A DNA stretch of 64,000 nucleotides from Escherichia phage vB_EcoM_CRJP21. The notes under the pieces were generated by a model. It had not been told where the DNA came from and did no database searches. It saw nothing but the letters and a program-made list of their open reading frames with translations. Each line of letters opens with the position of its first letter. Positions within the stretch are counted from its first letter, which is position 1. This document shows, piece after piece, positions 119-59,886 of this stretch. The position numbers and the translations under genes are program-made. The DNA lies in the sequence record OQ708376.1; one strand, 5' to 3'.

Positions 119-454
<336 letters not shown>

Positions 455-455
455 A

Positions 456-638
456 ATGACACACGAAGAATGGATGTCCAAACAGCATAAAGAACATGAC
501 TGCTTTGGGAATGGCATTCGTCAGGTACATTATGATATATTAAGAGATGAAAATCTTTTCAGGTCATATGTTTTGGATACCAGAAAACCCTGGTTTATAT
601 GCGAACTGGCATTTAGAAAGTCAAATAATCAAAACTAA
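456..638 (+). CDS. small hypothetical protein, MTHEEWM family
   Basis: N-terminus MTHEEWM shared with 1127..1291 and 1288..1452; start trimmed from track ORF 438. Confidence 0.45.
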   Translation: MTHEEWMSKQHKEHDCFGNGIRQVHYDILRDENLFRSYVLDTRKPWFICELAFRKSNNQN

Positions 639-654
639 ACAAGGAATACAAAAA

Positions 655-873
655 ATGGAAACAACTTTATTAGAAGTTATTCAATCATTAAAACCTGAAG
701 ATGAGGTTCAAGTACTACTACATGGTTATCGTGTAAAAGGTACTGTGGTTTTAGTCAATGATACAACATTGGTTATTACAGAAACAAACCCATATGATAG
801 TAATCAACTTGCCAATATCCATATCGATATCACTGGAATTATTGGTGTCGGTGTATCTAAAACACTTGCATAA
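655..873 (+). CDS. hypothetical protein
   Basis: track ORF 547..873 trimmed to internal ATG with aaggaa SD. Confidence 0.4.
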   Translation: METTLLEVIQSLKPEDEVQVLLHGYRVKGTVVLVNDTTLVITETNPYDSNQLANIHIDITGIIGVGVSKTLA

Positions 874-906
874 ATCATTAATTCATTATATAATGGGACA
901 TAACAT

Positions 907-1022
<116 letters not shown>

Positions 1023-1026
1023 AATA

Positions 1027-1103
1027 CGGGGTATAGCACAATTGGATAGTGCAAGAGAATTCTAATCTCTAGGTTGGGGGTTCAAGTCCCTCTACCTCGG
1101 CCA
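1027..1103 (+). tRNA. tRNA-Arg (anticodon TCT)
   Basis: acceptor cggggta/tacctcg, T-arm ggggg-ttcaagt-ccctc, anticodon loop attctaa, CCA. Confidence 0.7.
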
Positions 1104-1126
1104 ATTTTAATTAAAGGTTAAAAACC

Positions 1127-1453
<327 letters not shown>

Positions 1454-1461
1454 AAAAAAAG

Positions 1462-1875
<414 letters not shown>

Positions 1876-1935
1876 CTAAATAATTCAGTACTGAGGATAT
1901 TAATATGTTTAAAGATGAACGTCCAGATTTGTAAA

Positions 1936-2066
<131 letters not shown>

Positions 2067-2069
2067 TAC

Positions 2070-2229
<160 letters not shown>

Positions 2230-2244
2230 CAATGCGAGGTATAA

Positions 2245-2502
<258 letters not shown>

Positions 2503-2510
2503 GAATTTAA

Positions 2511-2912
2511 ATGAAAAAGAATGACTTGATCAAAATGCTTCAAGAAATTGACGGCAATCCAGAGATTGTTATTTGGAATGGATACGTCGATGATTATATG
2601 AACATCGAAAAAGGCTTGACTAAAATCACTCTAGTCAAAGAAACCGAACAGTTTCTTCAGGGTGCATTAGAGCACGAATGGTGTGAACGTAACAATACAT
2701 TCGACATTCCAGAAGACCAACGAACCAAGATTGCAGAACGTGCTAAAGAACTGCATAAGAAACGCGAATACGATTTCCAGAACCCATATGTCACTGAAGA
2801 CGAATTCAATCGCTGGTACGGTAAAAAGAAATTGACAAAGTATGTCCTTTCACCTAAACTACGTGGTAAGACTTCACTTGGTGTATTCAACGCCGCAGAC
2901 TTAAACTACTAG
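2511..2912 (+). CDS. hypothetical protein (133 aa)
   Basis: ORF tiling with neighbours. Confidence 0.6.
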   Translation: MKKNDLIKMLQEIDGNPEIVIWNGYVDDYMNIEKGLTKITLVKETEQFLQGALEHEWCERNNTFDIPEDQRTKIAERAKELHKKREYDFQNPYVTEDEFNRWYGKKKLTKYVLSPKLRGKTSLGVFNAADLNY

Positions 2913-2921
2913 CGGGTATTA

Positions 2922-3286
<365 letters not shown>

Positions 3287-3287
3287 T

Positions 3288-3325
<38 letters not shown>

Positions 3326-3344
3326 AGAGGTACTTCGAGTATGC

Positions 3345-3471
<127 letters not shown>

Positions 3472-3531
3472 TACAACCGACAATGACGAAAGAACAGTTA
3501 TCAACATTTATCAACGCAGCATTAGATAAAA

Positions 3532-3563
<32 letters not shown>

Positions 3564-3615
3564 TACCAAGCAGCTTGAAGAACTTTGTAGTGCTGCACCT
3601 ATGCCGACTCTTGGC

Positions 3616-3716
<101 letters not shown>

Positions 3717-3728
3717 TATCTTACTTCT

Positions 3729-3818
<90 letters not shown>

Positions 3819-3824
3819 TACACT

Positions 3825-4250
3825 ATGACATACAACATTGTTAAAATGGTGAACTATGTATTAAAAAACAACGCATGGTCACTGCATGATGTACAATTAG
3901 AAGATATTGGTGAAGTTAGAGTATTTTGCTATGATCCAGATTTGAATCAAACCACAGATTTGAGTAAATGTTTTAATATTTTTCTTGGTTATGAATTCAA
4001 TAATCATTTTTATTCATTTGATGTGTATTTTGAAAAAGTTATATTCAGAAGTTATGAATGTGATAATGAAGATTATGATTATGATGATGAATCAATTGAA
4101 TTGAATGTTAACGATATTGATACTGAAGAAAAATTCTTCCAGTACTGCCTCCTTAACGACACATTAGGATTAACATTTGAGGACATTAAAGCTATACTTA
4201 AAGTTCAAAAGTTGATTCCAGAAGAGGTACTAAATCCATTAAATGACTAG
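3825..4250 (+). CDS. hypothetical protein (141 aa), EEYFQ-motif family
   Basis: ORF; C-terminal EEKFFQYCLLND motif. Confidence 0.6.
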   Translation: MTYNIVKMVNYVLKNNAWSLHDVQLEDIGEVRVFCYDPDLNQTTDLSKCFNIFLGYEFNNHFYSFDVYFEKVIFRSYECDNEDYDYDDESIELNVNDIDTEEKFFQYCLLNDTLGLTFEDIKAILKVQKLIPEEVLNPLND

Positions 4251-4608
4251 TCTAATAGTACGTATAATGCAAGATGTTTGTAATAACCTTTATACAGGCA
4301 ATTTTGACGATCCGAACATAAAAATATTATGTTATGATGGTTTTACAATGGTACATCCATCCTATTCAAATAATATCTACGTAGCATATACAGGTGAAAA
4401 TCTATTGTATCAATTTGATATATATAGTACAATGACAAAGATAATTTTGGATGCCTCTAAACCAGCAATCTTTATTGCTTCTCATGATTACCATTACACT
4501 GAAGAATCACTATTTCAGTACTCAATGATTAATGACATTGGTGGGTTGACATTGGATGAGGTTAATGCTATACTAGCTGTCTCACGTTTGGTTAAAACCC
4601 ACAATTAG
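4243..4608 (+). CDS. hypothetical protein (121 aa), EEYFQ-motif family
   Basis: ORF overlapping previous gene; C-terminal EESLFQYSMIND. Confidence 0.6.
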   Translation: MTSLIVRIMQDVCNNLYTGNFDDPNIKILCYDGFTMVHPSYSNNIYVAYTGENLLYQFDIYSTMTKIILDASKPAIFIASHDYHYTEESLFQYSMINDIGGLTLDEVNAILAVSRLVKTHN

Positions 4609-4617
4609 GAGATTCAT

Positions 4618-4809
4618 ATGTTCTGGAATTTATTATGCTTGTTTGGTCGTACATTGGTTCTTGCTATTATTCATACACCTGGTATTCGTAATTATGTTTC
4701 TTATGAATTTAAGAAAAATTATCACAACAATACTGAAGTTCGTACAACTAAGATGTGCAAAGACTTCAAGGTAGATGTTCCACCATTCAAGAAGTACGAG
4801 GATGAATAA
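4618..4809 (+). CDS. hypothetical small protein
   Basis: ORF with SD ggagattcat. Confidence 0.45.
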   Translation: MFWNLLCLFGRTLVLAIIHTPGIRNYVSYEFKKNYHNNTEVRTTKMCKDFKVDVPPFKKYEDE

Positions 4810-5093
4810 TGGAATTCATTGTTGCACCTGATGAACTTAAAACATTCACGTTCAGAGATAATAACAATTATCCTTATACAAATCATTCATTGAATTCATT
4901 ACATGTTATTGCAATCATTGCATCTGAATACAGGGATAATCCATGTATTGATTTTAAAACCACTGATGGCGAATATACATGGGTGATCCCAAAAGATAAA
5001 TATAGTTATCAAGGGGCAGTAGAAATTCGTGACTCGATTCTAAAACAAATCGAAGATGGAAATACTCATCCTAAACTAAACACTCAGTACTGA
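4809..5093 (+). CDS. hypothetical protein (94 aa)
   Basis: ORF; TAATG overlap with previous. Confidence 0.5.
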   Translation: MEFIVAPDELKTFTFRDNNNYPYTNHSLNSLHVIAIIASEYRDNPCIDFKTTDGEYTWVIPKDKYSYQGAVEIRDSILKQIEDGNTHPKLNTQY

Positions 5094-5281
5094 AATCGTT
5101 TAACCCGATAGCTTCTAGTCAGTACTGATTCCTCCTTATGTATAGAAGCTATCACTTTTTTACGTATAATGATATTACCCTCAAATTCATTATATTCGTT
5201 ACCCTCTAACAGTATCTTTTTATTCCTCTTGGATGCTGTAATTTAGAAGTTGACTTTTTAACTTCTACTGTGTTATACTTA

Positions 5282-5310
5282 AGGCTGATTCGATGAATCG
5301 GCCTTTTTTC
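5282..5310 (+). terminator. intrinsic terminator hairpin plus T-run
   Basis: aggctgattcg...cgaatcggcct followed by ttttttc. Confidence 0.5.
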
Positions 5311-5318
5311 TTATATAG

Positions 5319-5747
5319 GTGAATGCAATGAGTTATTTGTTTACTTTAATTGATAAGTATGTTGACATTGTATACCGTCAAGTTTGTAGTGATACGTTTG
5401 AAACAAAAAACCCAATTAGAGATGGCATTTTTGATGTTGTCGTTGGATCATTTTTGAATGGATACACCGAGACATTATACAACAGTAATAATATTTTTAT
5501 TTCAGTTCAATCCAGACATACATCAGACTATGCTGTTAGCATTGATATTTGGGAAAATAATATAGAAATAGATATAACGGAACATACTAACATTCATGTT
5601 GATGATACATTTAATCAATTAACTGAAGAAATGTACTTGCAGTTGAATTTTGTACATAATCTTACAAATATCAGTTATGATACATTAAGGAAAATATGTT
5701 TTCTTAGTGGGGTGATCCGTAGTAATATGAGTAAGGATGGGAAGTGA
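5319..5747 (+). CDS. hypothetical protein (142 aa), EEYFQ-motif family
   Basis: ORF; paralog architecture. Confidence 0.6.
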   Translation: MNAMSYLFTLIDKYVDIVYRQVCSDTFETKNPIRDGIFDVVVGSFLNGYTETLYNSNNIFISVQSRHTSDYAVSIDIWENNIEIDITEHTNIHVDDTFNQLTEEMYLQLNFVHNLTNISYDTLRKICFLSGVIRSNMSKDGK

Positions 5748-6165
5748 AATGTTAAAAATTCCACCTAAGTCGTTAACACATCTTATTGAATGTGGTGTAA
5801 TATTTTCCGAAGGTGATACCTCATCATACACATTGGTCGATGAGCCTTATAATTTTTCATACCAATCTTATAAAAATAATTCTAAAATTTCTTGTAGATA
5901 TGCTGAAAACATATTAATAGATGTTTCGTTACATAATGTTCCGAAATTTTACATTGATATCTTTGGTGATTCTTTGACAATTCGAACATATGATTATTTT
6001 ATTAATAAAGACCTCTTGAGTCTTCCAATTGAACATGATACTATAGATTCAGAGATGTTCTTTCAACTATCAACAGTTTACGATTTACAGGGTTTAACTG
6101 TTGAGCAGTTGAATGGAATATTTGAGATTTCACGAAACATACGAAGCAGGAATAAAAATGTCTAA
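5737..6165 (+). CDS. hypothetical protein (142 aa), EEYFQ-motif family
   Basis: ORF; C-terminal SEMFFQLSTVYD. Confidence 0.6.
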   Translation: MGSEMLKIPPKSLTHLIECGVIFSEGDTSSYTLVDEPYNFSYQSYKNNSKISCRYAENILIDVSLHNVPKFYIDIFGDSLTIRTYDYFINKDLLSLPIEHDTIDSEMFFQLSTVYDLQGLTVEQLNGIFEISRNIRSRNKNV

Positions 6166-6568
6166 TATTTTAAATGAAAAAACAGTTGATGTTGTTATTG
6201 GTGTTCTTAACACCGCAACTTCATTTCAGAAGAAACACAGTGTTGTATACTTTGGTGAAGATTGTTGGCTGAACTATACTAATAATTCGTTTATAATTCG
6301 TGTAGAGGCTGATGATATTGGATTAACCGTTCAGGTAGGATGTGCCAAAACTGACAAACAAATCACTGTCATTGTTGATAAACTTACGTCTTCTTTTTAT
6401 GATAGTATAGATGATTGTGAACACTATAGTTCAACATTTTATGATACAGAAGAAGAACATTTTATGGAAAGTACTGTTCAAGAGTTAGCTATTCCATATA
6501 AGCTAATGAAAGCAGTGAGTGATTTAATTTTAAAATATAAAAAAATAGGAGTTACTAATGCAATTTAA
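6113..6568 (+). CDS. hypothetical protein, EEYFQ-motif family (true start possibly 6157)
   Basis: ORF; C-terminal EEEHFMESTVQE. Confidence 0.55.
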   Translation: MEYLRFHETYEAGIKMSNILNEKTVDVVIGVLNTATSFQKKHSVVYFGEDCWLNYTNNSFIIRVEADDIGLTVQVGCAKTDKQITVIVDKLTSSFYDSIDDCEHYSSTFYDTEEEHFMESTVQELAIPYKLMKAVSDLILKYKKIGVTNAI

Positions 6569-7004
6569 TGGTAAAGTTTCCAAAGTAGGTTTGGTTTTTG
6601 AAAACTGTGAATTTGTTGATATTGATGTAAAGAATGTTTTATGGATGCATATTGCTGATGAGAAGACTCTTTGTAGCCGTTTTTCAAACGGTCTGACAAT
6701 TAGTACTGTTATCGGTGAGTTCGGTATTGCATTACGCAGCAATACACCATCGGATTTCATGGACAACTCTACACTGTTAGACCGTTTAAAAATGCGTGAC
6801 GTTACACACGTTTATCTATATGATACTAACGGTGTTGAACAGCGTTATGTAGTTGAATGGGCTAATTATAACCTTAGTGATCAATATTCAGTAAACCAGC
6901 GTGTTCAAATCACCCCTGGTGGTAATATTGTGTTTGTTAGTTCAACTGGTAAATTAATCAGTGTAGATGATAAAAACATTGACCTATTCACAGCATATAA
7001 CTAA
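6558..7004 (+). CDS. hypothetical protein (148 aa)
   Basis: ORF with SD aggag. Confidence 0.6.
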   Translation: MQFNGKVSKVGLVFENCEFVDIDVKNVLWMHIADEKTLCSRFSNGLTISTVIGEFGIALRSNTPSDFMDNSTLLDRLKMRDVTHVYLYDTNGVEQRYVVEWANYNLSDQYSVNQRVQITPGGNIVFVSSTGKLISVDDKNIDLFTAYN

Positions 7005-7015
7005 TACGAGCTTCC

Positions 7016-7435
7016 ATGAAAACAATCAAAATTCATTTCAAAGACACTTGGACAGAAGTAAGTACTGGTAATATTCAGGATATTTTATATAGTACTGAAA
7101 CTATTCATGTTTATGATGAAGAGACTGCTTCCGAGCAGTTAAAAGTTTTGCATCGTAGTGTTGGTGTGCACACTGAATATGGCATTAAACATACTCGTGA
7201 ATTACTTAATACTAATCACATTGAAACCCGTAAAGCAAACTTATCAAAAGAAGAAATGTTCGATTTCATCCTGAACCATAAAGTTCATATTGAGCCTGAT
7301 GGGTCTATATGGGAGAACACTGCTGGACAAAAAGTGCTGAAAAAATATCATGTTTCAATTGATAATGTAAAAATGTCAGGGTATGATTTGGAAGATGCAA
7401 TTAATGAATATGTATCTAGGCAGAGGGCAAATTGA
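7016..7435 (+). CDS. hypothetical protein (139 aa)
   Basis: ORF. Confidence 0.6.
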   Translation: MKTIKIHFKDTWTEVSTGNIQDILYSTETIHVYDEETASEQLKVLHRSVGVHTEYGIKHTRELLNTNHIETRKANLSKEEMFDFILNHKVHIEPDGSIWENTAGQKVLKKYHVSIDNVKMSGYDLEDAINEYVSRQRAN

Positions 7436-51412: not shown

Positions 51413-52522
51413 TTATTTTGGTAAATCAATTTTAGTAAAGACTGCAACATCCTCGATTGCACCTGGAATGGCGTAATACGATCCAGTACTATACACATCT
51501 CCATTTTTGGTTAATATCGATGTCAAACCATCACTAAAAAGAACATCCCTAATCTCACTAACTTCAACGGGTAATTGTAAATTGGTAGCACTATATATAG
51601 CACCAGTTTGAGAATTGTTTAATCCCAAACCACGGTTCGCCCCAACACCCTTCTGATATGTACTAGTAATTACCATTTGTGTAGCAGTATTTAAGGCAGG
51701 TGAATTCGTCATAAACAACGGAGAACTATTAGGCAAAGTACTTAAAGGAACTGCACGGAATGTAGTCGTACCTGAACTAAGAAAGTTTGGAGTTTGACCA
51801 CATACGAAATATGATGTACCATTATAGTAATTTAATGCATTACCACCAATGGCTGCATCGATTACACCAGAACTACGCAATCCCCAAGTGTTAATTTGTG
51901 TTTGGTTCCCCGTACCATGCTGCCCACTACTATTCCATCCAGAACTATATAGCTTATTATCTAATGTAAGATACATACTATCATTCGCATTGGTCATTAC
52001 TTTACGAACGTTCGTAGCACATTGAGTTAATGTGTAAATTGATGATGAACCAATACCCAAAGAACCACGATATCCATTATCTCCTGCACCATAGAGTACT
52101 GAATTAGTGCTAAGTACAAATATTAAACCATTTGTGCATACAATATTAGCAATTTCACTGACTGGTATAGCATTGGTAAACCAACTAGTCCTTTCAACTA
52201 ATACAGTACTGTAAGAAGTAGTTGTAGAAGATGAGAACCAGTACGTTTGACCTGATGTCCATATAGTATTATCATTTTTAATAATAACAAGTGTACGATC
52301 ACCCACGAAAAAATTAGAAACATCTGCACTTACTAATGTCCACGAAGACACCGTGTTGGTATTACCATTTCCAGATTCACCACCTTGATTTCTACCTATG
52401 TAATATAAATCATGTGAATCAGTCAATAAGAATTGACCTTGTGTAGAAGCACCAACTTTAATTATTTTTTTAGGACCAGGGACAATATTTCCATACCTAA
52501 TTATTCTTCCAAAAGGTAACAT
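51413..52522 (-). CDS. RCC1-like repeat protein, paralog 8
   Basis: MLPFGRIIRY leader; start trimmed. Confidence 0.7.
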   Translation of the reverse strand: MLPFGRIIRYGNIVPGPKKIIKVGASTQGQFLLTDSHDLYYIGRNQGGESGNGNTNTVSSWTLVSADVSNFFVGDRTLVIIKNDNTIWTSGQTYWFSSSTTTSYSTVLVERTSWFTNAIPVSEIANIVCTNGLIFVLSTNSVLYGAGDNGYRGSLGIGSSSIYTLTQCATNVRKVMTNANDSMYLTLDNKLYSSGWNSSGQHGTGNQTQINTWGLRSSGVIDAAIGGNALNYYNGTSYFVCGQTPNFLSSGTTTFRAVPLSTLPNSSPLFMTNSPALNTATQMVITSTYQKGVGANRGLGLNNSQTGAIYSATNLQLPVEVSEIRDVLFSDGLTSILTKNGDVYSTGSYYAIPGAIEDVAVFTKIDLPK

Positions 52523-52530
52523 ATTCCCTC

Positions 52531-53733
52531 CTATTGTTGCCATAACTGCGTTGGCATTAATGTTAGTGTAGTAATACTATAAGTGCCATCTGGCAATCTA
52601 CCACCATTTCCATTCCAGCCACCACATGCATATAATTTATAATCTTTAGTAATTATTATGGTTCTGCTCCAATCTTTAGATGCCATAAGAACATTTTCAT
52701 AACCACCACTTATTGCACTAAGATTAAAAATATTCCAAGTTCTAACTAATGTATTAGTTCCATTACCTTCTTGACCATATGAGTTAGCACCACTACTTCT
52801 AACATATGGTGCGTATTGTGCCATAGGTGCACCAATTGATGCATTTCCCATATTACTTGGACAAATAAAAGTACTGTACTTACTTACATCAACCGTGACC
52901 GATGTGTTCCTAATTGGTGTTAGCTGATTTACCGATGTAGTCGTACCATTACCCGCTTGTCCAGTACTGTTAGCCCCGCTATAATATACAGACCCACCAG
53001 TAGTAAACCACCAAGTAACATCGTATGTAGTACTAATATGTTCTACATTACTAATCACGAATTTGTTCAAATATACAACAGAACTACCACCACATCCACT
53101 TTCACCAAAGTTATCCTTACCACAAAACCATGCATCTTTATTTGATTTGATATAGTGCGTTCCTTGTAATGAACATGCCATATGTGTAACTTCACCCATA
53201 TTAGTCATAACTGTGAGTGTAGGGATGGAATTTTTATTACCAGAGCCACATTCACCATTGGTATTTCTTCCACACGCAATTACTCTACCATCGGTTAATA
53301 ATATTCTAGTACTTTCACCTATATATACACTCTTGATCATATTAGCCATAACACCTATTTTATTAAATGCAACAGTAACATCAGTCCATGTTGTCAAATA
53401 ACCATTAACAGGTGTTGCATCTCCATAATCAGAAAATGCAGCCACAGACCCAGTGTAGTATATTTTATTATCCAAATCAATCATCAACGAACCTTGAACA
53501 CCAAGCCAAAAGGCTGCACAGTTCCTTGCAAGTACTGTAAATGACGAAACTGCTGCTGAATTCCCAAGACCAAATTGATACATGTTATTACTACCATAAC
53601 CATATAAAGTATTAGTTGGGTTATGTAGATACATACAGTTTGTATAATGTTGTTGTAAAACATCTGAGAACTCTACAGGTTCTGGACCTGGTGCAATATT
53701 TGCGTACTTAACCATTCTTCCAAAAGGTAACAT
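52531..53733 (-). CDS. RCC1-like repeat protein, paralog 9
   Basis: MLPFGRMVKY leader. Confidence 0.7.
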   Translation of the reverse strand: MLPFGRMVKYANIAPGPEPVEFSDVLQQHYTNCMYLHNPTNTLYGYGSNNMYQFGLGNSAAVSSFTVLARNCAAFWLGVQGSLMIDLDNKIYYTGSVAAFSDYGDATPVNGYLTTWTDVTVAFNKIGVMANMIKSVYIGESTRILLTDGRVIACGRNTNGECGSGNKNSIPTLTVMTNMGEVTHMACSLQGTHYIKSNKDAWFCGKDNFGESGCGGSSVVYLNKFVISNVEHISTTYDVTWWFTTGGSVYYSGANSTGQAGNGTTTSVNQLTPIRNTSVTVDVSKYSTFICPSNMGNASIGAPMAQYAPYVRSSGANSYGQEGNGTNTLVRTWNIFNLSAISGGYENVLMASKDWSRTIIITKDYKLYACGGWNGNGGRLPDGTYSITTLTLMPTQLWQQ

Positions 53734-53835
53734 ATTTCCCTCCTTATTAATTATATCATATTTACCCCATAAAGAAAACCCTTGACATCCTTTCAGTACT
53801 GGTGTACTATAGAAGGAATATAAGGAGAACTACAC
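53734..53835. promoter_or_regulatory. divergent control region between the RCC1-like array (-) and the small-gene array (+)
   Basis: plus strand ttgaca-N17-tactat at about 53782-53810; minus strand tataat-like element plus SD aaggaggg. Confidence 0.5.
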
Positions 53836-54063
53836 ATGACAAATACTCTTAAGTACTACCTCAATACTCTAAATGAACTAGAGTACGGGGAATTTCTCGC
53901 GGATAGTTCGTGGCTAATTGAGCTAAAAAATTATAATAGTCCAGGATGCACCCTTATGATGAACAATGCAATTGATACCCTCATTGTGAGTATTTTACAC
54001 AGCAACATCTGCGGGGATAGCAATAAACAATTATCAAAAATCTTAGTACTGCTATCTATATGA
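53836..54063 (+). CDS. small protein, KEFY...LIYRY family member
   Basis: first of tandem ~60-aa paralogs. Confidence 0.55.
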   Translation: MTNTLKYYLNTLNELEYGEFLADSSWLIELKNYNSPGCTLMMNNAIDTLIVSILHSNICGDSNKQLSKILVLLSI

Positions 54064-54263
54064 ACATTGAACAGTACTACATCGATGCACTACCAACAAA
54101 AGGTCTACGAGAAAGCCTACTGTATACACAAAATACTTTTATACACTACAAACGTTGTCCTAAACTCCTGAACTCGTACAGGAGTAATATCATAAGAAAT
54201 GCTTTACAAGGGGCAGAAAGTATGCAATACTATTATATCCTTGCCCTTTTAATCGAGTACTAA
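54060..54263 (+). CDS. small protein, KEFY family
   Basis: tandem paralog. Confidence 0.55.
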   Translation: MNIEQYYIDALPTKGLRESLLYTQNTFIHYKRCPKLLNSYRSNIIRNALQGAESMQYYYILALLIEY

Positions 54264-54264
54264 T

Positions 54265-54474
54265 ATGAATACTGAACATAAAGAATTCTACACCAAATAC
54301 CTTAGCAACGAAGAACAATTGTTTCTAAGGAGTGTATCACCTTTAAGTATAGATACACCACACGCCAGAGATTGCTTTAATAATTGTATACGTAGTACTA
54401 TAGAAGCAATCGAATGTAATAACAAAAATATTATGTACTCAGGTTTAATAGGACTAATATATTTCTATGAATAA
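54265..54474 (+). CDS. small protein, KEFY family
   Basis: MNTEHKEFY...; close paralog of 57105..57314. Confidence 0.6.
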   Translation: MNTEHKEFYTKYLSNEEQLFLRSVSPLSIDTPHARDCFNNCIRSTIEAIECNNKNIMYSGLIGLIYFYE

Positions 54475-54661
54475 TCATAAAGATTTCTATTGTAGTAAAC
54501 TACCCAAACAAGAACAGCTATCATTCTCTTTAGCACCACCTATGAGAAAGGATAATCTGTATTATAATTACGATTTCAGGATGGTGACACGTTATGCAAT
54601 AGAACATACGTTCCCTGCAACTAAGTACCGCTCTATCCTGAACCTCATCTTTAAGTTCTAA
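54467..54661 (+). CDS. small protein, KEFY family
   Basis: MNNHKDFY...; paralog of 57307..57495. Confidence 0.6.
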   Translation: MNNHKDFYCSKLPKQEQLSFSLAPPMRKDNLYYNYDFRMVTRYAIEHTFPATKYRSILNLIFKF

Positions 54662-54708
54662 AAGGTACACCAGGGACCGAGTACTTTAACATAGTAAGGC
54701 TAATTACA

Positions 54709-54894
54709 ATGAATCATATAAGCTACTACTACCAACAACTATCCGACAGAGACAAGTACAGTCACAACTCCCATGTGTGGTACTACAAACGCGGCAGTAT
54801 AAGAGACAAACAACATTACTTCTGTATTTCTATTAAAGAAGCACTGACAACTAAGTACACGTACCGAGCAGTACTGAAACTTATTGAAATGTAA
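54709..54894 (+). CDS. small protein, KEFY family
   Basis: tandem paralog. Confidence 0.55.
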   Translation: MNHISYYYQQLSDRDKYSHNSHVWYYKRGSIRDKQHYFCISIKEALTTKYTYRAVLKLIEM

Positions 54895-54902
54895 GGAAGA
54901 AA

Positions 54903-55085
54903 ATGAACATAGAATTCTATTTAACTAAACTACAACACGCCGAAAGATTCAACTTCAATAAGTTCAATATTTTCTACAATTGCGGGAACAAAAAAGATAA
55001 ACACACCTTCCTATATGTCGTCACAAGAGATGCACAAAACGAAAAGTACACATACAGAGAAGTAATGAAACTAATCGCTATTTAA
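54903..55085 (+). CDS. small protein, KEFY family
   Basis: tandem paralog; ...KYTYREVMKLIAI. Confidence 0.55.
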   Translation: MNIEFYLTKLQHAERFNFNKFNIFYNCGNKKDKHTFLYVVTRDAQNEKYTYREVMKLIAI

Positions 55086-55093
55086 GGAATACT

Positions 55094-55272
55094 ATGCAAC
55101 AATTCTATAGAGAACGTATAACCATAAAAGACCGTTTCATGTACGACACCTTCGTGAAGTACTACAAACTAGGAACAAAAAGTACTAAAAATATTAATCT
55201 CAATAGCTGCATTTATGCTGTACTAACACAAGATAATCCCTACAGGGAAATCCTCGCCCTGGCATCTATATA
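55094..55272 (+). CDS. small protein, KEFY family (59 aa)
   Basis: hand-translated MQQFYRERITIKDRF...; below track cutoff. Confidence 0.45.
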
Positions 55273-55283
55273 AAGGAAACCAA

Positions 55284-55955
55284 ATGAAACTTAATGCACA
55301 CAGCAAACAATACCTTAAGCACTTTAAGTACCTCAATAGTATTCAGGCAGAATCAGTTACATCTGCATATACGTATCACCCGAATGTACTAAAGAAACGA
55401 AATAAAAAGGAAAAATCCAGTACAAATGGAGTTAACGTATCAAAGAACCTTGAATTGTACATGAAGAAAAATAATATAGCTGTTCATTATATGAATATCT
55501 ATAATACTGATTTAAAAGTATTGAGTACTAATACGAGCACAAAGGTACTAAAGAACGCATCCTTCATCATCAATATGCAGTTGGATAATACCCCGTGCAC
55601 TTTAATGCTATACTTCGGGAATACATACTTCTTCGGGAATTGTAACACCTCCCACGATGTCAATACAGCACAATTCCAAATGGGTGGCATATACTCTACT
55701 GATGCAGAAAAAGTACACGAGAATATGCACTTCTGGCAAGCACAACGTACAGAAGAAACTGATACAGTACTACAATTCCTCAAAGAATTACAAGGCAAAG
55801 AATTATCCGAGGAAGAACTATTCATGTACAGTACTGTAATCGATAATCCAGCACTCTATAAAAATGCGTACAATCTGACAAAACATGTACAGGAAATTAT
55901 CAGTACTAATAAGAAAATGCATCACCTCATTACGTATATTACAAACTATGTATAA
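55284..55955 (+). CDS. hypothetical protein (223 aa) inserted within the small-gene array
   Basis: ORF; unrelated to flanking paralogs. Confidence 0.6.
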   Translation: MKLNAHSKQYLKHFKYLNSIQAESVTSAYTYHPNVLKKRNKKEKSSTNGVNVSKNLELYMKKNNIAVHYMNIYNTDLKVLSTNTSTKVLKNASFIINMQLDNTPCTLMLYFGNTYFFGNCNTSHDVNTAQFQMGGIYSTDAEKVHENMHFWQAQRTEETDTVLQFLKELQGKELSEEELFMYSTVIDNPALYKNAYNLTKHVQEIISTNKKMHHLITYITNYV

Positions 55956-56148
55956 AGAATTCTACATAAAAGAACTACCAAAGTTTCTACAAGGAAATCT
56001 ATTAGAAGATGAACCTCGCGGTATTGACTGTATATATGAAGCTGATTACTTCCGTACATGTACTGAACAAGTACTTAATGAAGAAGCTAATGAAAACAAT
56101 TATCAAGTACAACTGTACCACACCCTGTACCTTGCGTTCCAGTACTAA
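55948..56148 (+). CDS. small protein, KEFY family
   Basis: MYKEFYIKEL...; trimmed from track ORF 55885. Confidence 0.55.
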   Translation: MYKEFYIKELPKFLQGNLLEDEPRGIDCIYEADYFRTCTEQVLNEEANENNYQVQLYHTLYLAFQY

Positions 56149-56157
56149 GGATAATAT

Positions 56158-56343
56158 ATGTATAAAGAATACTACATAGAGAAACTCCCAATGTATCTCC
56201 AACACCTTGTACCAAACGTTGCATTGGGTATAGAAAAAAACTACGAAAAAGACTACTTCATTCAGTGCACTAAATCCTCGATATATATTGAAGACTATAA
56301 TCGAGTACTGTATCATATCCTTTTACTAATATATAGGTACTAA
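56158..56343 (+). CDS. small protein, KEFY family
   Basis: MYKEYY...LLLIYRY. Confidence 0.6.
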   Translation: MYKEYYIEKLPMYLQHLVPNVALGIEKNYEKDYFIQCTKSSIYIEDYNRVLYHILLLIYRY

Positions 56344-56344
56344 T

Positions 56345-56527
56345 ATGCACAAAGAATACTACACACAATTTCTCCCCAGCATTTTTGAACACTACGCCAG
56401 ATATAAAGTCCCTATGGATAACGATTTGGCAGTACTGGGATTCAATAACTGCATAGAACGAAGTATAGAAAATAGTAGTAGTTATGACCAGCTATATAAC
56501 ACTATCCTACTTATATTCAGGTACTAA
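56345..56527 (+). CDS. small protein, KEFY family
   Basis: MHKEYY...ILLIFRY. Confidence 0.6.
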   Translation: MHKEYYTQFLPSIFEHYARYKVPMDNDLAVLGFNNCIERSIENSSSYDQLYNTILLIFRY

Positions 56528-56528
56528 C

Positions 56529-56717
56529 ATGCATAAAGAATACTACACAAAACATTTCCCAATGTACCTCAGAACTAATCTATTAGATAAACCTCGCGGT
56601 ATCAATGCACAAAACGATAAAGTGTACTTTACTATGTGCACTAAAGCATGTATACTAGATTTTGACAGCTATCATCGAGTACTGTATCATACCCTGTACC
56701 TAGCTTTCGTATTCTAA
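56529..56717 (+). CDS. small protein, KEFY family
   Basis: MHKEYY...; trimmed from track ORF 56484. Confidence 0.6.
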   Translation: MHKEYYTKHFPMYLRTNLLDKPRGINAQNDKVYFTMCTKACILDFDSYHRVLYHTLYLAFVF

Positions 56718-56726
56718 GAGAACAAT

Positions 56727-56912
56727 ATGCATAAAGAATTCTACTTAAGCCATCTCGATCTAAACTCCCAAATGCTTATACCACAAATCCCAATAGATAT
56801 CAAGGATAAGAAAAATACCGAACAATTCATTTACCATACACAGTGTGCGATCACCCCAAATTACATTCCATATGAATTGTACTACATTCTCGCCCTAATA
56901 TATAGGTACTAA
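56727..56912 (+). CDS. small protein, KEFY family
   Basis: MHKEFY...LALIYRY. Confidence 0.6.
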   Translation: MHKEFYLSHLDLNSQMLIPQIPIDIKDKKNTEQFIYHTQCAITPNYIPYELYYILALIYRY

Positions 56913-56913
56913 T

Positions 56914-57099
56914 ATGCATAGAGAATACTACACACAATTTGTTAAAGGGAACTACAAACATGCCGTACCCAGAACCCCTTTAAATTTTCATGACCCAAGT
57001 ACTATATTCTTGTTCCATGACGCAATACGTACAGTACTCAATACTAAAGATGAAGATGTGCAGTACGTATTCTTACTATTACTTATATACAGACACTAA
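56914..57099 (+). CDS. small protein, KEFY family
   Basis: MHREYY...LLLIYRH. Confidence 0.6.
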   Translation: MHREYYTQFVKGNYKHAVPRTPLNFHDPSTIFLFHDAIRTVLNTKDEDVQYVFLLLLIYRH

Positions 57100-57104
57100 C
57101 TAAT

Positions 57105-57314
57105 ATGAATAAAGAACATAAAGAATTCTACTCCAAATACATAAGCCCCTCAGAACAAATGTTTCTAAGGACTACTCCACCTTTAAGTACTAATACATTT
57201 TTCGGCAGAGTATGCTACAATAATTGTATTCAAATGACTTTAAACGCAAACGAAGATGGTAACAGTACTAACCTGTACTCAGGTATCATAGGTATACTAT
57301 TCCTGTATGAATAA
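57105..57314 (+). CDS. small protein, KEFY family
   Basis: MNKEHKEFY... Confidence 0.6.
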   Translation: MNKEHKEFYSKYISPSEQMFLRTTPPLSTNTFFGRVCYNNCIQMTLNANEDGNSTNLYSGIIGILFLYE

Positions 57315-57495
57315 TTACAAAGACTTCTATTTGAATACACTACCTACTGTACTTTCTCTAAGTGCTCAATGTAAAATCCCGCTGGATAATGCTTACGCCA
57401 GATATAGCTATTCCATAACTGTTAATCGATGTATAGAGAATCATTGCAGTACTAACCAGTACTATAACATAATCCTACTTATATTCAGGTACTAA
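57307..57495 (+). CDS. small protein, KEFY family
   Basis: MNNYKDFY...ILLIFRY. Confidence 0.6.
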   Translation: MNNYKDFYLNTLPTVLSLSAQCKIPLDNAYARYSYSITVNRCIENHCSTNQYYNIILLIFRY

Positions 57496-57496
57496 T

Positions 57497-57679
57497 ATGA
57501 ATAAAGAACATAAAGAATTCTATATACGAAAACTAACATTCGTCCCCGTAAGAATATATAAAGAATGCGACCCAAGATTATACCTATGGCACTTCAATGA
57601 GTGCATAAAAGATTCTATATACCCTAAGAACTACAAAGAACAATTGTGCTCAGTACTAACACTAGTACTATCATATTAA
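57497..57679 (+). CDS. small protein, KEFY family
   Basis: MNKEHKEFY... Confidence 0.6.
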   Translation: MNKEHKEFYIRKLTFVPVRIYKECDPRLYLWHFNECIKDSIYPKNYKEQLCSVLTLVLSY

Positions 57680-57694
57680 TTAATAGAGAATACT

Positions 57695-57886
57695 ATGTAT
57701 AAAAACTTCTATATAAGTAAACTAAAAGAAAATGAACAAGTATGGATTAGATCTATAATAGTACTGGCATTTAATAGATATGCATTTAACAGATGTACCG
57801 AGATTGCTATAGACCCTTATAATATTAAAGAGAATGTACAGTATAATCAGTACTACTATATCTTAATGCTTATATATAGGAAGTAA
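57695..57886 (+). CDS. small protein, KEFY family
   Basis: MYKNFY...LMLIYRK. Confidence 0.6.
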   Translation: MYKNFYISKLKENEQVWIRSIIVLAFNRYAFNRCTEIAIDPYNIKENVQYNQYYYILMLIYRK

Positions 57887-58514
57887 TTAAACACAAGTAG
57901 ACAGGGGAAGCTCCTAGTGAACAACCTTTATGTACAGGCGAATTGTTAAAATTCAGCCTGGACAAATGCGATCACTAGGATTCTCCCCAGGCTAAACCCC
58001 GTAATCATAGGTAGTCATAAGTAATCATATATAAACATTTATATGAGCACCGTAGAATCACAGAATGATTATATATGATTCAGTACTGATTAGTATAGAC
58101 AAGAATTCTCAAGAATGCACGGGAAGGATTCAGTACTGATATGCCACTAAGTAGGCAGAGGAAGTCTGCCGTACTTTGTAGTTTCCAAGCTCCTTTTCCA
58201 TTTTTCAAATTACATCAAATGTAATCAAAAGTAATCACGCAATGATTAGTACTGAATTATTACTTTCACCTTAATTACAATTACCCTTTTACCCTTCGGG
58301 GTAAAATTCAATTACCCCTTGAGGCTCCAGCAAAAAGTTGGTTAGTACTCCATCCTAAATCTCGATCCTAAAAATTTTGGAGTACCTATGAAATAAAAGT
58401 TGGATCTTCGAAAGTTGAAATTTACGTTGGGACGTTTATGATTTGTGGGATATAATGATGTTTGTAGACGGGTAGTTCTCAAGAATATCAGTACTGAAAG
58501 ATGAAAGAAAGTTA

Positions 58515-58542
58515 TTGACTTTATGATTCAGTACTGTATAAT
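58515..58542 (+). promoter_or_regulatory. orphan sigma70-like promoter in ORF-poor region
   Basis: ttgact-N16-tataat; no credible ORF within about 1 kb downstream. Confidence 0.5.
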
Positions 58543-58869
58543 GTTCTACATAGGGTGATGAGTTGCTGCGAACAATTCATTTACTCTACCTCCTGTCGTG
58601 AGACAGTACAGAAAAGATAGTTCCTCCTGTGGTGGTACATCTTTTTGAACCTCATATGAAAATCGTAATAACAGTACTGATATTAACAGAATGGTGTCAG
58701 TACTGATTTTAATCTAAAGCATTATGCCACCAGCACAAGCTGGTGGATTCCCTCTAACAGTATTCAGTACTACATGATGGTCTTCATCCTCCTAGGGTAA
58801 CATAGTGAGGGCTATGATGGCAGTACTGAATACTCCCTTTCAAAAGATAGATCTATGGTATAGTACTGA

Positions 58870-59060
58870 CGGATTTTGGGCGTAGTTACCCTGGATGGAT
58901 TTTGGGCGTAGATATGTCTAGCCCTCCAGAAGTCTGGAAGTAAAGATGGCTATCCATCTAGACGGCTAAACGGCTAGATTTCTGGATGGCTGGATGGCTA
59001 GACGTTTGGACGGCTAAACGGCTAGATGGTTACACGTCTGGAAGTATAGACGGCTAAATC
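58870..59060. repeat. iteron-like short direct repeats
   Basis: GATTTTGGGCGTAG at 58872 and 58889 (variant at 59221); GACGGCTAAACGGCTAGAT at 58961 and 59009; GGATGGCT x2; GACGGCTAAA x3. Confidence 0.6.
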
Positions 59061-59683
59061 AAAATTTTATTTTGTTTTTTCCAATAGTTCCCCTACCGCG
59101 TGGGGATAGTTTCCCCGCAGTATCTGGTGTTAGATTTTTCTGAATCTGGAATCATTATCTTATAAACTGGGGGCAATGTCAACGGCCTGGCCGGATATTT
59201 TTAAAAATTTTTTCAGTACTGAATTTTGGGCGTAACTATGCACCCGGTGGGCTTGAGTCTTTCTCGACTTGATGGAACTATTATACAGTACTGGAAAAAT
59301 AAAGCAATACCCTGGAAGCAAAAAAGTTTTAATTAATTTGCTTGCTATCCTGGGCCGGACTATGGTACTATATTTCAGTACTGAGAAAGTGCGTTTACCT
59401 GCTAGGGTGCGGGAGTGTATCCTTTTTTTATATCTTGAATTTTGGACGGATCTTCCCACCCCCTGGGGTATCCGCTTTCTCGCGTCTATGTAGTAATTAT
59501 ACGCTTTTTCAGGATCAAGTCAATACCTAAAAACAAAATAATTGAAAATAATTTAACGCGTTTAAACGGCCTGTAAAGCCCTGGAATGATTGGAATGGTG
59601 CAAATGTATAGCTTATGTGTATTAATGCGTTAGAATGCGTCTGAGGACGTTTTACGGGGTATAGGGATGATTTAGTGGATTGA

Positions 59684-59772
59684 TTCAGTACTGAATAATA
59701 GTACTCCTATATAGAAAGATAGTTCCCCTGGATGATTGCAGTACTGAATAATAGTACTCCTATATAGAAAGA
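59684..59772. repeat. two copies of a ~35-bp direct repeat
   Basis: tcagtactgaataatagtactcctatatagaaaga at about 59686 and about 59737. Confidence 0.6.
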
Positions 59773-59802
59773 AAACTATTTTAAAAGTATTTGTAGAAAG
59801 TA

Positions 59803-59865
59803 CTTGCACCGTACTGATAAAAGCGTATAATGTTTTACATCGAGAGCGGGAACACTTCCCGCTAC
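59803..59865 (+). promoter_or_regulatory. early promoter plus 5'-UTR stem-loop module
   Basis: acttgcac...tataat then hairpin agcggga-acac-ttcccgct. Confidence 0.55.
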
Positions 59866-59886
59866 ACATTAAGAGAGATTAAAACG

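What the first reader, a model, noticed from the sequence alone, without database searches (positions are those of the whole stretch)
53836..57886. Array of about eighteen tandem, tightly coupled ~60-aa paralogous genes (KEFY...LIYRY family)
There are about eighteen consecutive small ORFs, many overlapping by ATGA or separated by under 12 bp. They share the N-terminal pattern M-(N/H/Y)-K-E-(F/Y)-Y-x-x-x-L, a central conserved Cys, and a C-terminal hydrophobic (L/I)(L/I)x(L/I)(I/L)(F/Y)R(Y/H/K). Close sub-pairs such as 54265 versus 57105 and 54467 versus 57307 indicate repeated block duplications. Such a large family of miniproteins within one phage is unusual; candidates include host-takeover or anti-defence inhibitors with diversified specificities, or partners of the adjacent propeller proteins.
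Basis: seen in the sequence. Interest (0 to 1): 0.8.

Follow-up and report, generated by a model that had tools for sequence, protein, structure and literature searches.

The report
Hypervariable miniprotein gene array in jumbo coliphage
A giant E. coli phage carries one early operon of 18 tightly packed genes, 16 of them diverged copies of a roughly 60-residue helical protein with no known relatives; its function is unknown, but the block differs sharply between otherwise similar phages, which makes it a good candidate for host-takeover or counter-defence proteins.

Summary
The window is about 99.6% identical to Escherichia phage PBECO4 (Asteriusvirus, 348 kb). Positions 53836-57886 (+) hold 18 back-to-back ORFs.

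- **Coding:** stop-free cover is 99.8% against 23% in shuffles, changes concentrate at third codon positions, and pooled dN/dS is about 0.40.
- **Family membership:** twelve ORFs form a solid family (PHROG 11711, function unknown). Four more (g2, g5-g7) are probable distant members. g1 and the 223-aa g8 are not shown to belong.
- **Structure:** AlphaFold2 gives a confident model (pLDDT 93) of two short helices, a loop and a helical hairpin. It has no structural relatives outside the family and no zinc site.
- **Distribution:** an exhaustive profile search of 1.84 billion proteins found only about 31 clusters, and every one I traced comes from an Asteriusvirus-type phage.
- **Expression signals:** a conserved sigma-70-type promoter (invariant TTGACA) precedes g1, and Shine-Dalgarno-like sequences are built into upstream stop regions.
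- **Variation:** against phage JNE01 the flanks are about 90% identical up to the array borders, while the array proteins are only 19-61% identical. Seven genomes carry 45 protein types and 15-22 genes.
- **RCC1 link:** variation is uncoupled from the adjacent RCC1-like genes.

Function is unproven. The best inference is an early-expressed, cassette-swapped set of small binding proteins for host takeover or counter-defence. I rate it a new variant of a known kind.

The parts
53782..53810 (+). Sigma-70-type promoter of the array (TTGACA, 17 nt, TACTAT, with CAGTACTG in the spacer). An A-rich stretch lies upstream and an AAGGAG Shine-Dalgarno sequence lies at 53823-53828.
   Evidence: The -35 hexamer and the Shine-Dalgarno sequence are invariant in 7 phages, including the divergent JNE01. 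The pattern TTGACA-N16-18-TAYWAT occurs 14 times in the window against 0.79 expected. Function as a promoter is inferred.
53836..54063 (+). g1, 75 aa. First gene of the operon. It has a similar N-terminal/C-terminal pattern (LKYYLNTL...ILVLLSI), but family membership is not demonstrated.
   Evidence: hhalign against the core family gives E 0.11. There is no PHROG hit. Orthologues have dN/dS of 0.21-0.26.
54060..54263 (+). g2, 67 aa. Probable distant family member. Overlaps g1 by ATGA.
   Evidence: hhalign against the core family gives E 3e-5 and probability 73%, end to end. BLASTP to g16 gives 2e-3.
54265..54474 (+). g3, 69 aa. Core family member and first gene of the duplicated two-gene block.
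   Evidence: BLASTP to g15 gives 1e-27. Matches PHROG 11711.
54467..54661 (+). g4, 64 aa. Core family member. Overlaps g3 by 8 nt.
   Evidence: BLASTP to g16 gives 7e-12. Junction shown.
54709..55273 (+). g5 (54709-54894), g6 (54903-55085) and g7 (55094-55273), 59-61 aa. A basic subfamily ending in ...YREVLKLISI. Copy number is 2-6 in other phages.
   Evidence: BLASTP among the three gives 4e-11 to 2e-6. hhalign against the core family gives E 1.2e-4, end to end. The subfamily is found only in the same phage group.
55284..55955 (+). g8, 223 aa, basic. Not a miniprotein. It is conserved in the middle of every array and its function is unknown.
   Evidence: Matches PHROG 29152 at 8.6e-156. No Pfam or PDB hit. 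hhalign against the core family gives E 0.68. The AlphaFold2 model is unusable at pLDDT 41. It is present in all 7 genomes and in a metagenomic contig.
55948..57886 (+). g9-g18, ten core family members of 60-69 aa: 55948-56148, 56158-56343, 56345-56527, 56529-56717, 56727-56912, 56914-57099, 57105-57314, 57307-57495, 57497-57679 and 57695-57886.
   Evidence: The AlphaFold2 model of g10 has pLDDT 93.1 and pTM 0.77.
56662..56690 (+). Possible internal promoter inside the 3' end of g12 (TTGACA, 17 nt, TATCAT, with GAGTACTG before the -10), 37 nt upstream of g13.
   Evidence: It matches 11 of 12 consensus positions and resembles the phage's TTGACA...CAGTACTG-TATAAT promoters. Promoter-like sites are not enriched in the region overall (24 found against 28 expected), so this is only a lead.
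57898..57994 (+). Long imperfect hairpin directly after the last gene, on the border between variable and conserved sequence. It is a candidate 3' end, processing or stabiliser element of the operon mRNA. It has no U-tract.
   Evidence: MFE is -36.7 kcal/mol with z -4.3. The JNE01 counterpart folds with z -4.9. The right arm is invariant in 6 phages. RNAalifold counted no compensatory pair on the MAFFT alignment.

Best explanation
**Shown.** The region is a single-strand operon of 18 genes in a PBECO4-type jumbo phage. Sixteen of the genes encode diverged copies of one roughly 60-residue soluble, Tyr-rich helical protein: two short N-terminal helices, a Pro-containing loop and a C-terminal helical hairpin. 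The fold and the sequence family are orphans and are confined to Asteriusvirus-type phages. The genes are packed for translational coupling. Shine-Dalgarno-like sequences sit either right after the stop codon (TAAGGA) or inside the last codons of the upstream gene (the AGG Arg codon of ...YRY*, 1 nt before the next ATG). A conserved sigma-70-type promoter with an invariant TTGACA lies 26 nt upstream of g1. Between phages the block behaves as a hypervariable cassette. Whole genes are gained, lost, replaced and reordered at the gene junctions, and a lineage with 90%-identical flanks carries an entirely different set of family members.

**Inferred.** The operon is transcribed early by host RNA polymerase. 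The conserved residues form the hydrophobic scaffold, and the variable, Tyr-rich surface gives each paralogue its own protein target. The array would then serve as a set of small stoichiometric binders or inhibitors of host proteins, such as defence or housekeeping factors. Its composition would be shuffled by recombination between co-infecting relatives in response to differences between host strains.
For: **Coding**
- ORFs are maintained, with 99.8% stop-free cover against 23% in shuffles.
- substitutions fall 285:242:429 across codon positions and pooled dN/dS is 0.40.

**Family and distribution**
- establish the family.
- no Pfam or PADLOC hit, and only 32 clusters in 1.84e9 representatives (one a low-complexity false positive). 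All those I traced are Asteriusvirus-type phages.

**Structure**
- confident model.
- conserved positions fall on one face of helix 3 and on most of helix 4, and the rest vary.
- pI spans 4.4-9.6 and Tyr makes up 10.4% against 5.7% in the background genes.

**Expression signals**
- promoter and Shine-Dalgarno sequence conserved in 7 phages.
- junction anatomy.
- (PMC5259590): in the related phage CBB, RpoD-like promoters cluster in a region of short hypothetical genes that the authors regard as early host-takeover genes.

**Hypervariability**
- against JNE01 the flanks are about 90% identical up to 53829 and from 57940 onward. The RCC1-like neighbours are 96% and 82% identical and two downstream genes 99-100%. 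The best array protein matches are 19-61% identical.
- 15-22 genes per array, and 45 types at 60% identity or more in 7 genomes.
Against: - No experiment or homology links any member to a target or a phenotype.
- Orthologue comparisons show no sign of positive selection. dN/dS is 0.35 at scaffold positions and 0.44 at surface positions, a small difference. Some members are 100% conserved between phages.
- The array uses codons that are rare in E. coli (ATA 48%, CTA 34%, AGA+AGG 61% of their families). That sits awkwardly with strong immediate-early translation unless phage tRNAs help.
- Promoter-like sites as a class are not enriched in the region, so early timing rests on one conserved site and on analogy.
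- Invariable adjacency to the RCC1-like array remains unexplained.
Confidence: 0.45

Rival explanations
1. The miniproteins are partners (chaperones, inhibitors, adaptors or assembly factors) of the adjacent RCC1-like beta-propeller paralogues. The two expanded families would then form one functional system.
For: The two arrays are divergently arranged around one conserved intergenic region in all 7 genomes and in a metagenomic contig. Both are expansions specific to this phage group: phAPEC6 has 11 RCC1-like genes and GAP32 has 1 (PMC7247149).
Against: - The two arrays vary independently. JNE01 has the same RCC1-like neighbours (96/82/97% aa) but no shared miniprotein type. 121Q, slurp01, JP4 and UE-S1 have near-identical miniproteins, but their proximal RCC1-like genes are mostly only 25-29% identical to any in the window; one 121Q gene reaches 65%.
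- Promoter types differ. The RCC1 genes have TAAATAT[AG][GA]TATAAT without a -35 and each has its own terminator hairpin. The array has TTGACA-17-TACTAT.
- Two RCC1-like proteins were detected in phAPEC6 virions and no miniprotein was, although a 4.7-kDa protein was detected.
- Only the 1-3 proximal RCC1 genes were compared in each phage.
Confidence: 0.15
2. The family acts on the phage's own programme or on competing phages. Examples are small transcription or anti-sigma-type regulators, or superinfection-exclusion and inter-phage competition factors. It would not act on host defence.
For: The proteins are small, helical and encoded in an early-type operon. The only precedent in the literature I searched for an expanded small-protein family in a jumbo phage was proposed to be transcription factors or DNA-binding proteins: the roughly 35 zinc-ribbon copies of phage G (PMC7824862). 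Hypervariability between close relatives is also expected for inter-phage competition.
Against: There is no DNA-binding or known regulator fold. Net charge ranges from -7 to +5, so there is no common nucleic-acid-binding character. Regulators of a conserved phage programme would not be expected to be replaced wholesale while the flanks stay 90% identical.
Confidence: 0.2
3. The array is an evolutionary by-product. It would be a duplication-prone stretch whose copies persist under weak constraint with little individual function, such as the relic of an amplification or a selfish repeat unit.
For: dN/dS of about 0.4 is relaxed for phage genes, and some pairs approach or exceed 1 (g4 1.07-1.69; g12 and g14 about 1.0 against JP4, on small counts). 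Copy number varies freely. Codon usage is atypical for the genome.
Against: All 18 frames stay open in every phage examined. Paralogues are anciently diverged (15-45% identity) yet keep a scaffold that folds with high confidence. Several members are 95-100% conserved across phages whose flanks differ by 5-20%. Start signals are maintained at every junction.
Confidence: 0.1
4. The periodicity reflects a non-coding tandem DNA repeat, and the ORFs are spurious.
For: The units are of similar length (about 190-200 nt), and the PBECO4 GenBank record annotates only 6 genes here.
Against: TRF finds no long-period repeat. Stop-free cover is 99.8% on one strand only. There is a third-position excess and dN/dS below 1. 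The paralogue alignment yields a high-confidence structure prediction. The 121Q, JP4 and A4 records annotate the genes.
Confidence: 0.01

Closest known systems
Lineage-specific expansions of small proteins in jumbo phages, e.g. the roughly 35 zinc-ribbon copies of Bacillus phage G (Iyer et al. 2021, PMC7824862), and the 11 RCC1-like genes of phAPEC6 (PMC7247149)
   Same: Many paralogues of one small domain within a single jumbo-phage genome, arisen by tandem duplication, with function unknown.
   Different: The family here has no zinc ribbon or any known domain and an orphan helical fold. The copies form one uninterrupted, translationally coupled operon. The block is hypervariable between close relatives, which I showed here but which the papers I read do not report for those examples.
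Multigene families and 'genomic accordions' of large eukaryotic DNA viruses (ASFV MGF110/360/505; poxvirus K3L amplification). Recalled from general knowledge, not checked here.
   Same: Tandem paralogue arrays in variable genome regions, with copy number and content that differ between strains. In those viruses the arrays are tied to host range and immune evasion.
   Different: These are different viruses, hosts and protein folds. The paralogues here are anciently diverged rather than recent amplifications. A link to host range is untested.
Early 'host-takeover' clusters of small orphan genes in virulent phages (SPO1 host-takeover module and T4/T7 early genes, from general knowledge; the CBB region CBB_390-546 with RpoD-like promoters, PMC5259590)
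   Same: Small proteins of unknown function, densely packed and driven by host-type promoters, presumed to act on host proteins early in infection.
   Different: Those clusters consist mostly of unrelated genes. Here 16 of 18 genes are one family.
Anti-CRISPR and other anti-defence loci (general knowledge)
   Same: Small, fast-turning-over proteins in variable loci between conserved flanks, with orphan folds and acting as stoichiometric inhibitors.
   Different: Typical anti-defence loci hold a few unrelated genes plus a regulator such as Aca. No HTH regulator and no homology to any known anti-defence protein was found here. No dedicated anti-defence library was available to test this.
PHROG 11711 (function unknown)
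   Same: Twelve of the 18 ORFs match it, with E-values down to 6e-28. This is the existing database name for the core family.
   Different: The PHROG carries no function or description and does not capture g1, g2, g5-g7 or g8.

Membership tests
PHROG 11711 (uncharacterised phage protein family) | Significant match to the family HMM | tested here: met
   12 of 18 ORFs match, with a best E-value of 6.3e-28. g1, g2 and g5-g7 have no PHROG hit, and g8 belongs to PHROG 29152.
   g2 (E 3e-5) and g5-g7 (E 1.2e-4) align end to end with the core profile. g1 (E 0.11, 13 columns) and g8 (E 0.68) do not.
Zinc-binding miniprotein (zinc ribbon or treble clef) | Three or four conserved Cys/His metal ligands | tested here: not met
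   Members have 0-3 Cys each. Only one position (C37) is semi-conserved, in 18 of 25 members, and it lies on the core face of helix 3. The model is all-helical.
Non-coding tandem DNA repeat | Head-to-tail nucleotide repeat with equal conservation at all codon positions | tested here: not met
   TRF finds no array with a period near 190 nt. Substitutions fall 285:242:429 by codon position.
Virus multigene family in a variable region (accordion-type) | Tandem paralogues | tested here: met
Virus multigene family in a variable region (accordion-type) | Copy number and content differ between closely related genomes while the flanks stay conserved | tested here: met
   15-22 genes per array and 45 types in 7 genomes. 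Against JNE01 the flanks are 90% identical and the array is nearly unalignable.
Virus multigene family in a variable region (accordion-type) | Members determine host range or counteract host immunity | not testable with these tools
   This needs deletion mutants and plating on diverse or defence-bearing hosts.
Early (host RNA polymerase-dependent) phage operon | Sigma-70-type promoter upstream | tested here: met
   TTGACA-17-TACTAT at 53782-53810. The -35 is invariant in 7 phages.
Early (host RNA polymerase-dependent) phage operon | Transcript appears in the first minutes of infection | not testable with these tools
   I found no transcriptome of an Asteriusvirus in the searched literature.
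Known defence or anti-defence protein families | Sequence or fold match to a characterised member | tested here: not met
Partner system with the RCC1-like paralogues | Co-variation of the two arrays between genomes | tested here: not met
   The two arrays vary independently. Only the proximal RCC1 genes were compared.

The most novel reading that the evidence does not exclude
The array is a modular, recombination-shuffled library of Tyr-rich mini-binders on one minimal helical scaffold, in effect a phage-encoded repertoire of inhibitors. Each cassette would neutralise a different host defence or host factor. The conserved gene junctions (C-terminal helix codons, stop, Shine-Dalgarno sequence, ATG, KEFY codons) would double as the homology that lets co-infecting jumbo phages swap, add or drop cassettes without breaking the operon.
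Probability: 0.2. Interest if true: 0.8.

Novelty: new variant of a known kind. Interest (0 to 1): 0.55.

Why it matters
If the inference holds, this one locus would supply dozens of natural, roughly 60-residue, well-folding inhibitors with different targets. At least 45 types were seen in seven genomes. They would be useful as probes of E. coli defence and physiology, and as a compact binder scaffold.

It would also be a bacterial-virus counterpart of the multigene families that set host range in large eukaryotic DNA viruses.

In practice the locus is a marker of differences between therapeutic Asteriusvirus phages that look otherwise near-identical. The array is also under-annotated in some records: PBECO4 lists 6 of the 18 genes.

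Tried and rejected
- **Pfam, PADLOC and PDB sequence searches** gave nothing meaningful.
- **AlphaFold2 of g8** with 22 homologues failed at pLDDT 41, so g8 gives no functional clue. The idea that the C-terminus of g8 is a fused miniprotein domain was not supported (hhalign E 0.68).
- **Other family copies in the window.** A core-family HMM run against all 729 six-frame ORFs of the window found no other copy. The next best hits were g6 (E 0.15) and g2 (E 0.34), which are not significant on their own.
- **Positive selection on the surface.** dN/dS was 0.44 at surface positions and 0.35 at scaffold positions, so there is no signal.
- **DNA-level constraint at junctions.** Synonymous codon choice at the conserved KEFY codons simply follows the array-wide bias, so I rejected constraint beyond the protein and Shine-Dalgarno requirements.
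- **Rfam scan of 53500-60300.** The only hit was a sub-threshold chance match (caiA, E 0.6).
- **Covariation in the 3' hairpin.** RNAalifold counted no compensatory pair, although the outer stem differs in JNE01.
- **Literature.** The genome and structure papers on 121Q, PBECO4, phAPEC6, Sharanji, JP4, fEgEco12 and CBB, and the jumbo-phage review, do not describe this family.

Full report
**Origin of the window.** Positions 53800-57900 are 99.6% identical to Escherichia phage PBECO4, a 348-kb Asteriusvirus. They are 79-96% identical to 121Q, slurp01, phAPEC6, JP4, UE-S1 and A4, and matches occur in 35 E. coli and Salmonella jumbo-phage records. 121Q annotates the region as 17 hypothetical proteins (gp249-265). 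The PBECO4 record annotates only six genes there.

**Check of the observation.**
- Eighteen + strand ORFs tile 53836-57886. I call them g1 to g18; coordinates are in the parts list.
- The 17 junctions are one ATGA overlap, three 8-nt overlaps, five 1-nt gaps, six gaps of 5-10 nt, one of 15 nt and one of 47 nt.
- The + strand is 99.8% stop-free, against 23% (maximum 50%) in shuffles and 30% on the opposite strand.
- Tandem Repeats Finder sees no repeat of roughly 190 nt period.
- In 71 orthologue comparisons with five other phages, substitutions fall 285:242:429 across codon positions and pooled dN/dS is 0.40.
- The ORFs are therefore genes and not a degenerate DNA repeat.

**How many are paralogues.**
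- All-against-all BLASTP links g3, g4 and g9-g18 densely, with E-values down to 1e-27.
- The independent PHROG 11711 model hits exactly these twelve.
- g5-g7 form a basic subfamily.
- Profile-profile comparison aligns g5-g7 and g2 with the core family end to end, at E 1.2e-4 and 3e-5.
- g1 (E 0.11) and g8 are not shown to belong. g8 is 223 aa, has its own PHROG 29152 and gives E 0.68.
- The g3-g4 / g15-g16 block duplication is real, but the copies are old.

**The protein.**
- AlphaFold2 on a 57-sequence alignment gives a confident model of g10, with pLDDT 93.1 and pTM 0.77. It has helices at 3-7 and 12-15, a loop at 16-27, and a hairpin of helices 28-43 and 47-60.
- Conserved residues are K3, E4, F/Y5, Y6, L10, P22, L23, F34, C37, T/I38, I42, L/Y51, I54, L55, L57, I58, F/Y59 and Y61.
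- These fall on one face of helix 3 and along most of helix 4, and the other positions vary freely.
- The single semi-conserved Cys is present in 18 of 25 members, so there is no zinc site.
- pI ranges from 4.4 to 9.6. GRAVY is negative for every ORF except g1 (+0.17). The hydrophobic C-terminus is too short for a membrane span (an inference). Tyr makes up 10.4% of residues against 5.7% in other genes of the window.
- There are no Pfam or PADLOC matches.

**Distribution.**
- A profile search that read all 1.84 billion representative proteins found 32 clusters at E of 1e-3 or better. One is a low-complexity false positive, and the rest are 41-69 aa.
- The word-indexed searches gave 50 clusters for the core family, 33 for g5-g7 and 22 for g8. 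All named ones are Asteriusvirus-type phages or E. coli assemblies that carry such phages.
- The most divergent members map to phages JNE01 and Turkey5.

**Expression signals.**
- A sigma-70-type promoter (TTGACA-17-TACTAT, 53782-53810) with an A-rich upstream stretch and an AAGGAG Shine-Dalgarno sequence precedes g1.
- The -35 hexamer and the Shine-Dalgarno sequence are invariant in seven phages, and the -10 is TAC(T/A)AT.
- The pattern TTGACA-N16-18-TAYWAT occurs 14 times in the window against 0.79 expected, 13 of them on the + strand. This marks the window as rich in host-type promoters.
- For the related phage CBB, the authors regard such promoter-rich regions of short genes as early host-takeover genes (PMC5259590).
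- Within the array, start signals are built into the junctions. With 8-10 nt gaps the stop codon runs into a Shine-Dalgarno-like sequence (TAAGGA). With 1-nt gaps the AGG or GAG codon of the upstream C-terminus (...YRY*...IEY*) lies 8-10 nt before the next ATG.
- This can explain part of the conservation of the C-terminal Arg. However, g18, which has no downstream gene, keeps it too.
- A near-consensus site inside g12 (56662-56690) may be an internal promoter.
- A stable hairpin follows g18 at 57898-57994, with z -4.3, and a counterpart exists in JNE01 with z -4.9.

**Variation between phages (the main new result).**
- Against JNE01 the nucleotide alignment runs at 90.5% identity up to 53829, which is 7 nt before the g1 ATG. 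It resumes at 90.3% from 57940, which is 54 nt after the g18 stop.
- Between those points only four fragments align, at 67-73%.
- At protein level the RCC1-like neighbours are 96% and 82% identical and two downstream genes 99-100%. g8 is 40% identical, and the best miniprotein matches are 19-61%.
- I grouped array proteins into types at 60% identity or more and wrote one letter per type, so that the same letter in two phages means the same type. The arrays then read as below:

| Phage | Array order | Genes |
|---|---|---|
| PBECO4-type window | ABCDEFGHIJKLMNCOPQ | 18 |
| 121Q | ABCDEFGHRSJKLMNPQ | 17 |
| slurp01 | ABCDTEUFGHSVJKLMNCOPQ | 21 |
| JP4 | ABCDEFWFUGHSVJKLMNCOPQ | 22 |
| A4 | XYCDTEZFGHaLISbONQ | 18 |
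| UE-S1 | ABCDEGHSVJKLMNQ | 15 |
| JNE01 | 17 types, none shared with the others | 17 |

- This gives 45 types in seven genomes.
- A metagenomic lineage has 21 genes in yet another order.
- Changes are whole-gene insertions, deletions, replacements and reorderings at the junctions.
- Orthologues show no positive-selection signal, with dN/dS 0.35 at scaffold positions and 0.44 at surface positions. Diversity therefore comes from old paralogue divergence plus cassette exchange.

**Relation to the RCC1-like array.**
- In every lineage the array diverges from a block of RCC1-like propeller genes. There are nine ORFs in that minus-strand block at 42712-53733, and the eight of 343-433 aa are mutually 21-39% identical.
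- The two arrays vary independently. JNE01 shares the RCC1-like neighbours but not the miniproteins. 121Q, slurp01, JP4 and UE-S1 share the miniproteins, but their proximal RCC1-like genes are mostly only 25-29% identical to any in the window; one 121Q gene reaches 65%.
- The RCC1 genes have a different promoter-like motif (TAAATAT[AG][GA]TATAAT, with no -35) and individual terminator hairpins.
- Two RCC1-like proteins were detected in phAPEC6 virions, and no miniprotein was (PMC7247149).
- A specific partnership is therefore weakened but not excluded.

**Interpretation.**
- Shown: this is an orphan, genus-restricted multigene family of small helical proteins in one translationally coupled operon. 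The operon sits behind a conserved host-type promoter and forms a sharply bounded hypervariable cassette.
- Inferred: it is expressed early, and the proteins share a conserved scaffold with variable Tyr-rich surfaces that bind different targets. I put about 45% on their acting on host proteins for takeover or counter-defence.
- Rivals are a phage-internal or inter-phage role (about 20%), RCC1 partnership (about 15%), a weakly constrained by-product (about 10%) and a non-coding repeat (about 1%).

**Comparison with what is known.** The kind is known. Precedents are lineage-specific expansions in jumbo phages such as the phage G zinc ribbons (PMC7824862), early small-gene clusters, variable anti-defence loci, and the multigene families of large eukaryotic DNA viruses. 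This particular family, its fold and its cassette behaviour are not described in the literature I could search. I rate it a new variant of a known kind, with interest 0.55.

Noticed in passing
whole window; densest at 58081-59746: The palindromic 8-mer CAGTACTG occurs 54 times against 0.93 expected. Twelve copies lie in the roughly 2-kb ORF-poor stretch downstream of the array. The motif often sits directly before the -10 of perfect TTGACA...TATAAT promoters. It could be a regulator or modification site, or an extended promoter element.
   Followed up: partly
window 3415-61649: There are fourteen perfect-class sigma-70 promoters (TTGACA-N16-18-TAYWAT) against 0.79 expected, 13 of them on the + strand. 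This marks most of the window as host-RNA-polymerase-transcribed, presumably early, territory.
   Followed up: partly
window 57900-59800: This ORF-poor region of about 1.9 kb is conserved at about 90% with JNE01. It holds an iteron-like repeat of 8-nt period (CTNNAYGG, about 12 units) at 58957-59056 and several promoter-like sites. The cumulative GC skew reaches its local minimum here. It is a candidate replication origin, regulatory hub or non-coding RNA region. It has no Rfam match.
   Followed up: partly
window 57898-57994: A long imperfect hairpin sits at the 3' border of the array (z -4.3). JNE01 has a counterpart (z -4.9) whose outer stem differs in sequence (GGGG/CCCC against AGAU/AUCU). 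However, RNAalifold counted no compensatory pairs on the MAFFT alignment.
   Followed up: partly
window 42712-53733 (- strand): Nine minus-strand ORFs form the RCC1-like block. The eight of 343-433 aa are mutually 21-39% identical. Several have a repeated upstream unit of about 110 nt: a terminator hairpin, then TAAATAT[AG][GA]TATAAT, then AAGGAGG. This block is itself mosaic between phages: the proximal genes of 121Q, slurp01, JP4 and UE-S1 are mostly only 25-29% identical to any copy in the window. Two homologues are virion proteins in phAPEC6 (PMC7247149).
   Followed up: partly
window 53836-57886: Codon usage in the array departs from the rest of the genome. TAC is 61% against 30%, TTC 74% against 32%, ATA 48% against 21%, CTA 34% against 13%, and third-position C 25% against 12%. 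The coding strand is C-rich over G, which is opposite to the other genes. Possible causes are foreign origin, a strand-specific mutation bias, or dependence on phage tRNAs. The cause is unresolved.
   Followed up: partly
window 141-3808: A cluster of seven tRNA genes: Gly-TCC, Ser-TGA, Arg-TCT, Ser-GCT, Met/Ile-CAT, Asn-GTT and Thr-TGT. Arg-TCT reads AGA, and possibly AGG by wobble. The CAT tRNA might read ATA if it is modified. Both are codons the array uses heavily.
   Followed up: no
L002 (KC295538, PBECO4 record) 3001-7101: The public PBECO4 record annotates only 6 of the 18 genes of the array, and some have truncated coordinates. 121Q, JP4 and A4 annotate nearly all of them.
   Followed up: yes
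window 56984-57100, 55499-55825 (-), 56002-56316 (-): Several antisense or alternative-frame ORFs of 35-108 aa overlap the array. They show no family signal and cover only 30% of the minus strand, which is close to the shuffled expectation, so they are probably spurious.
   Followed up: partly
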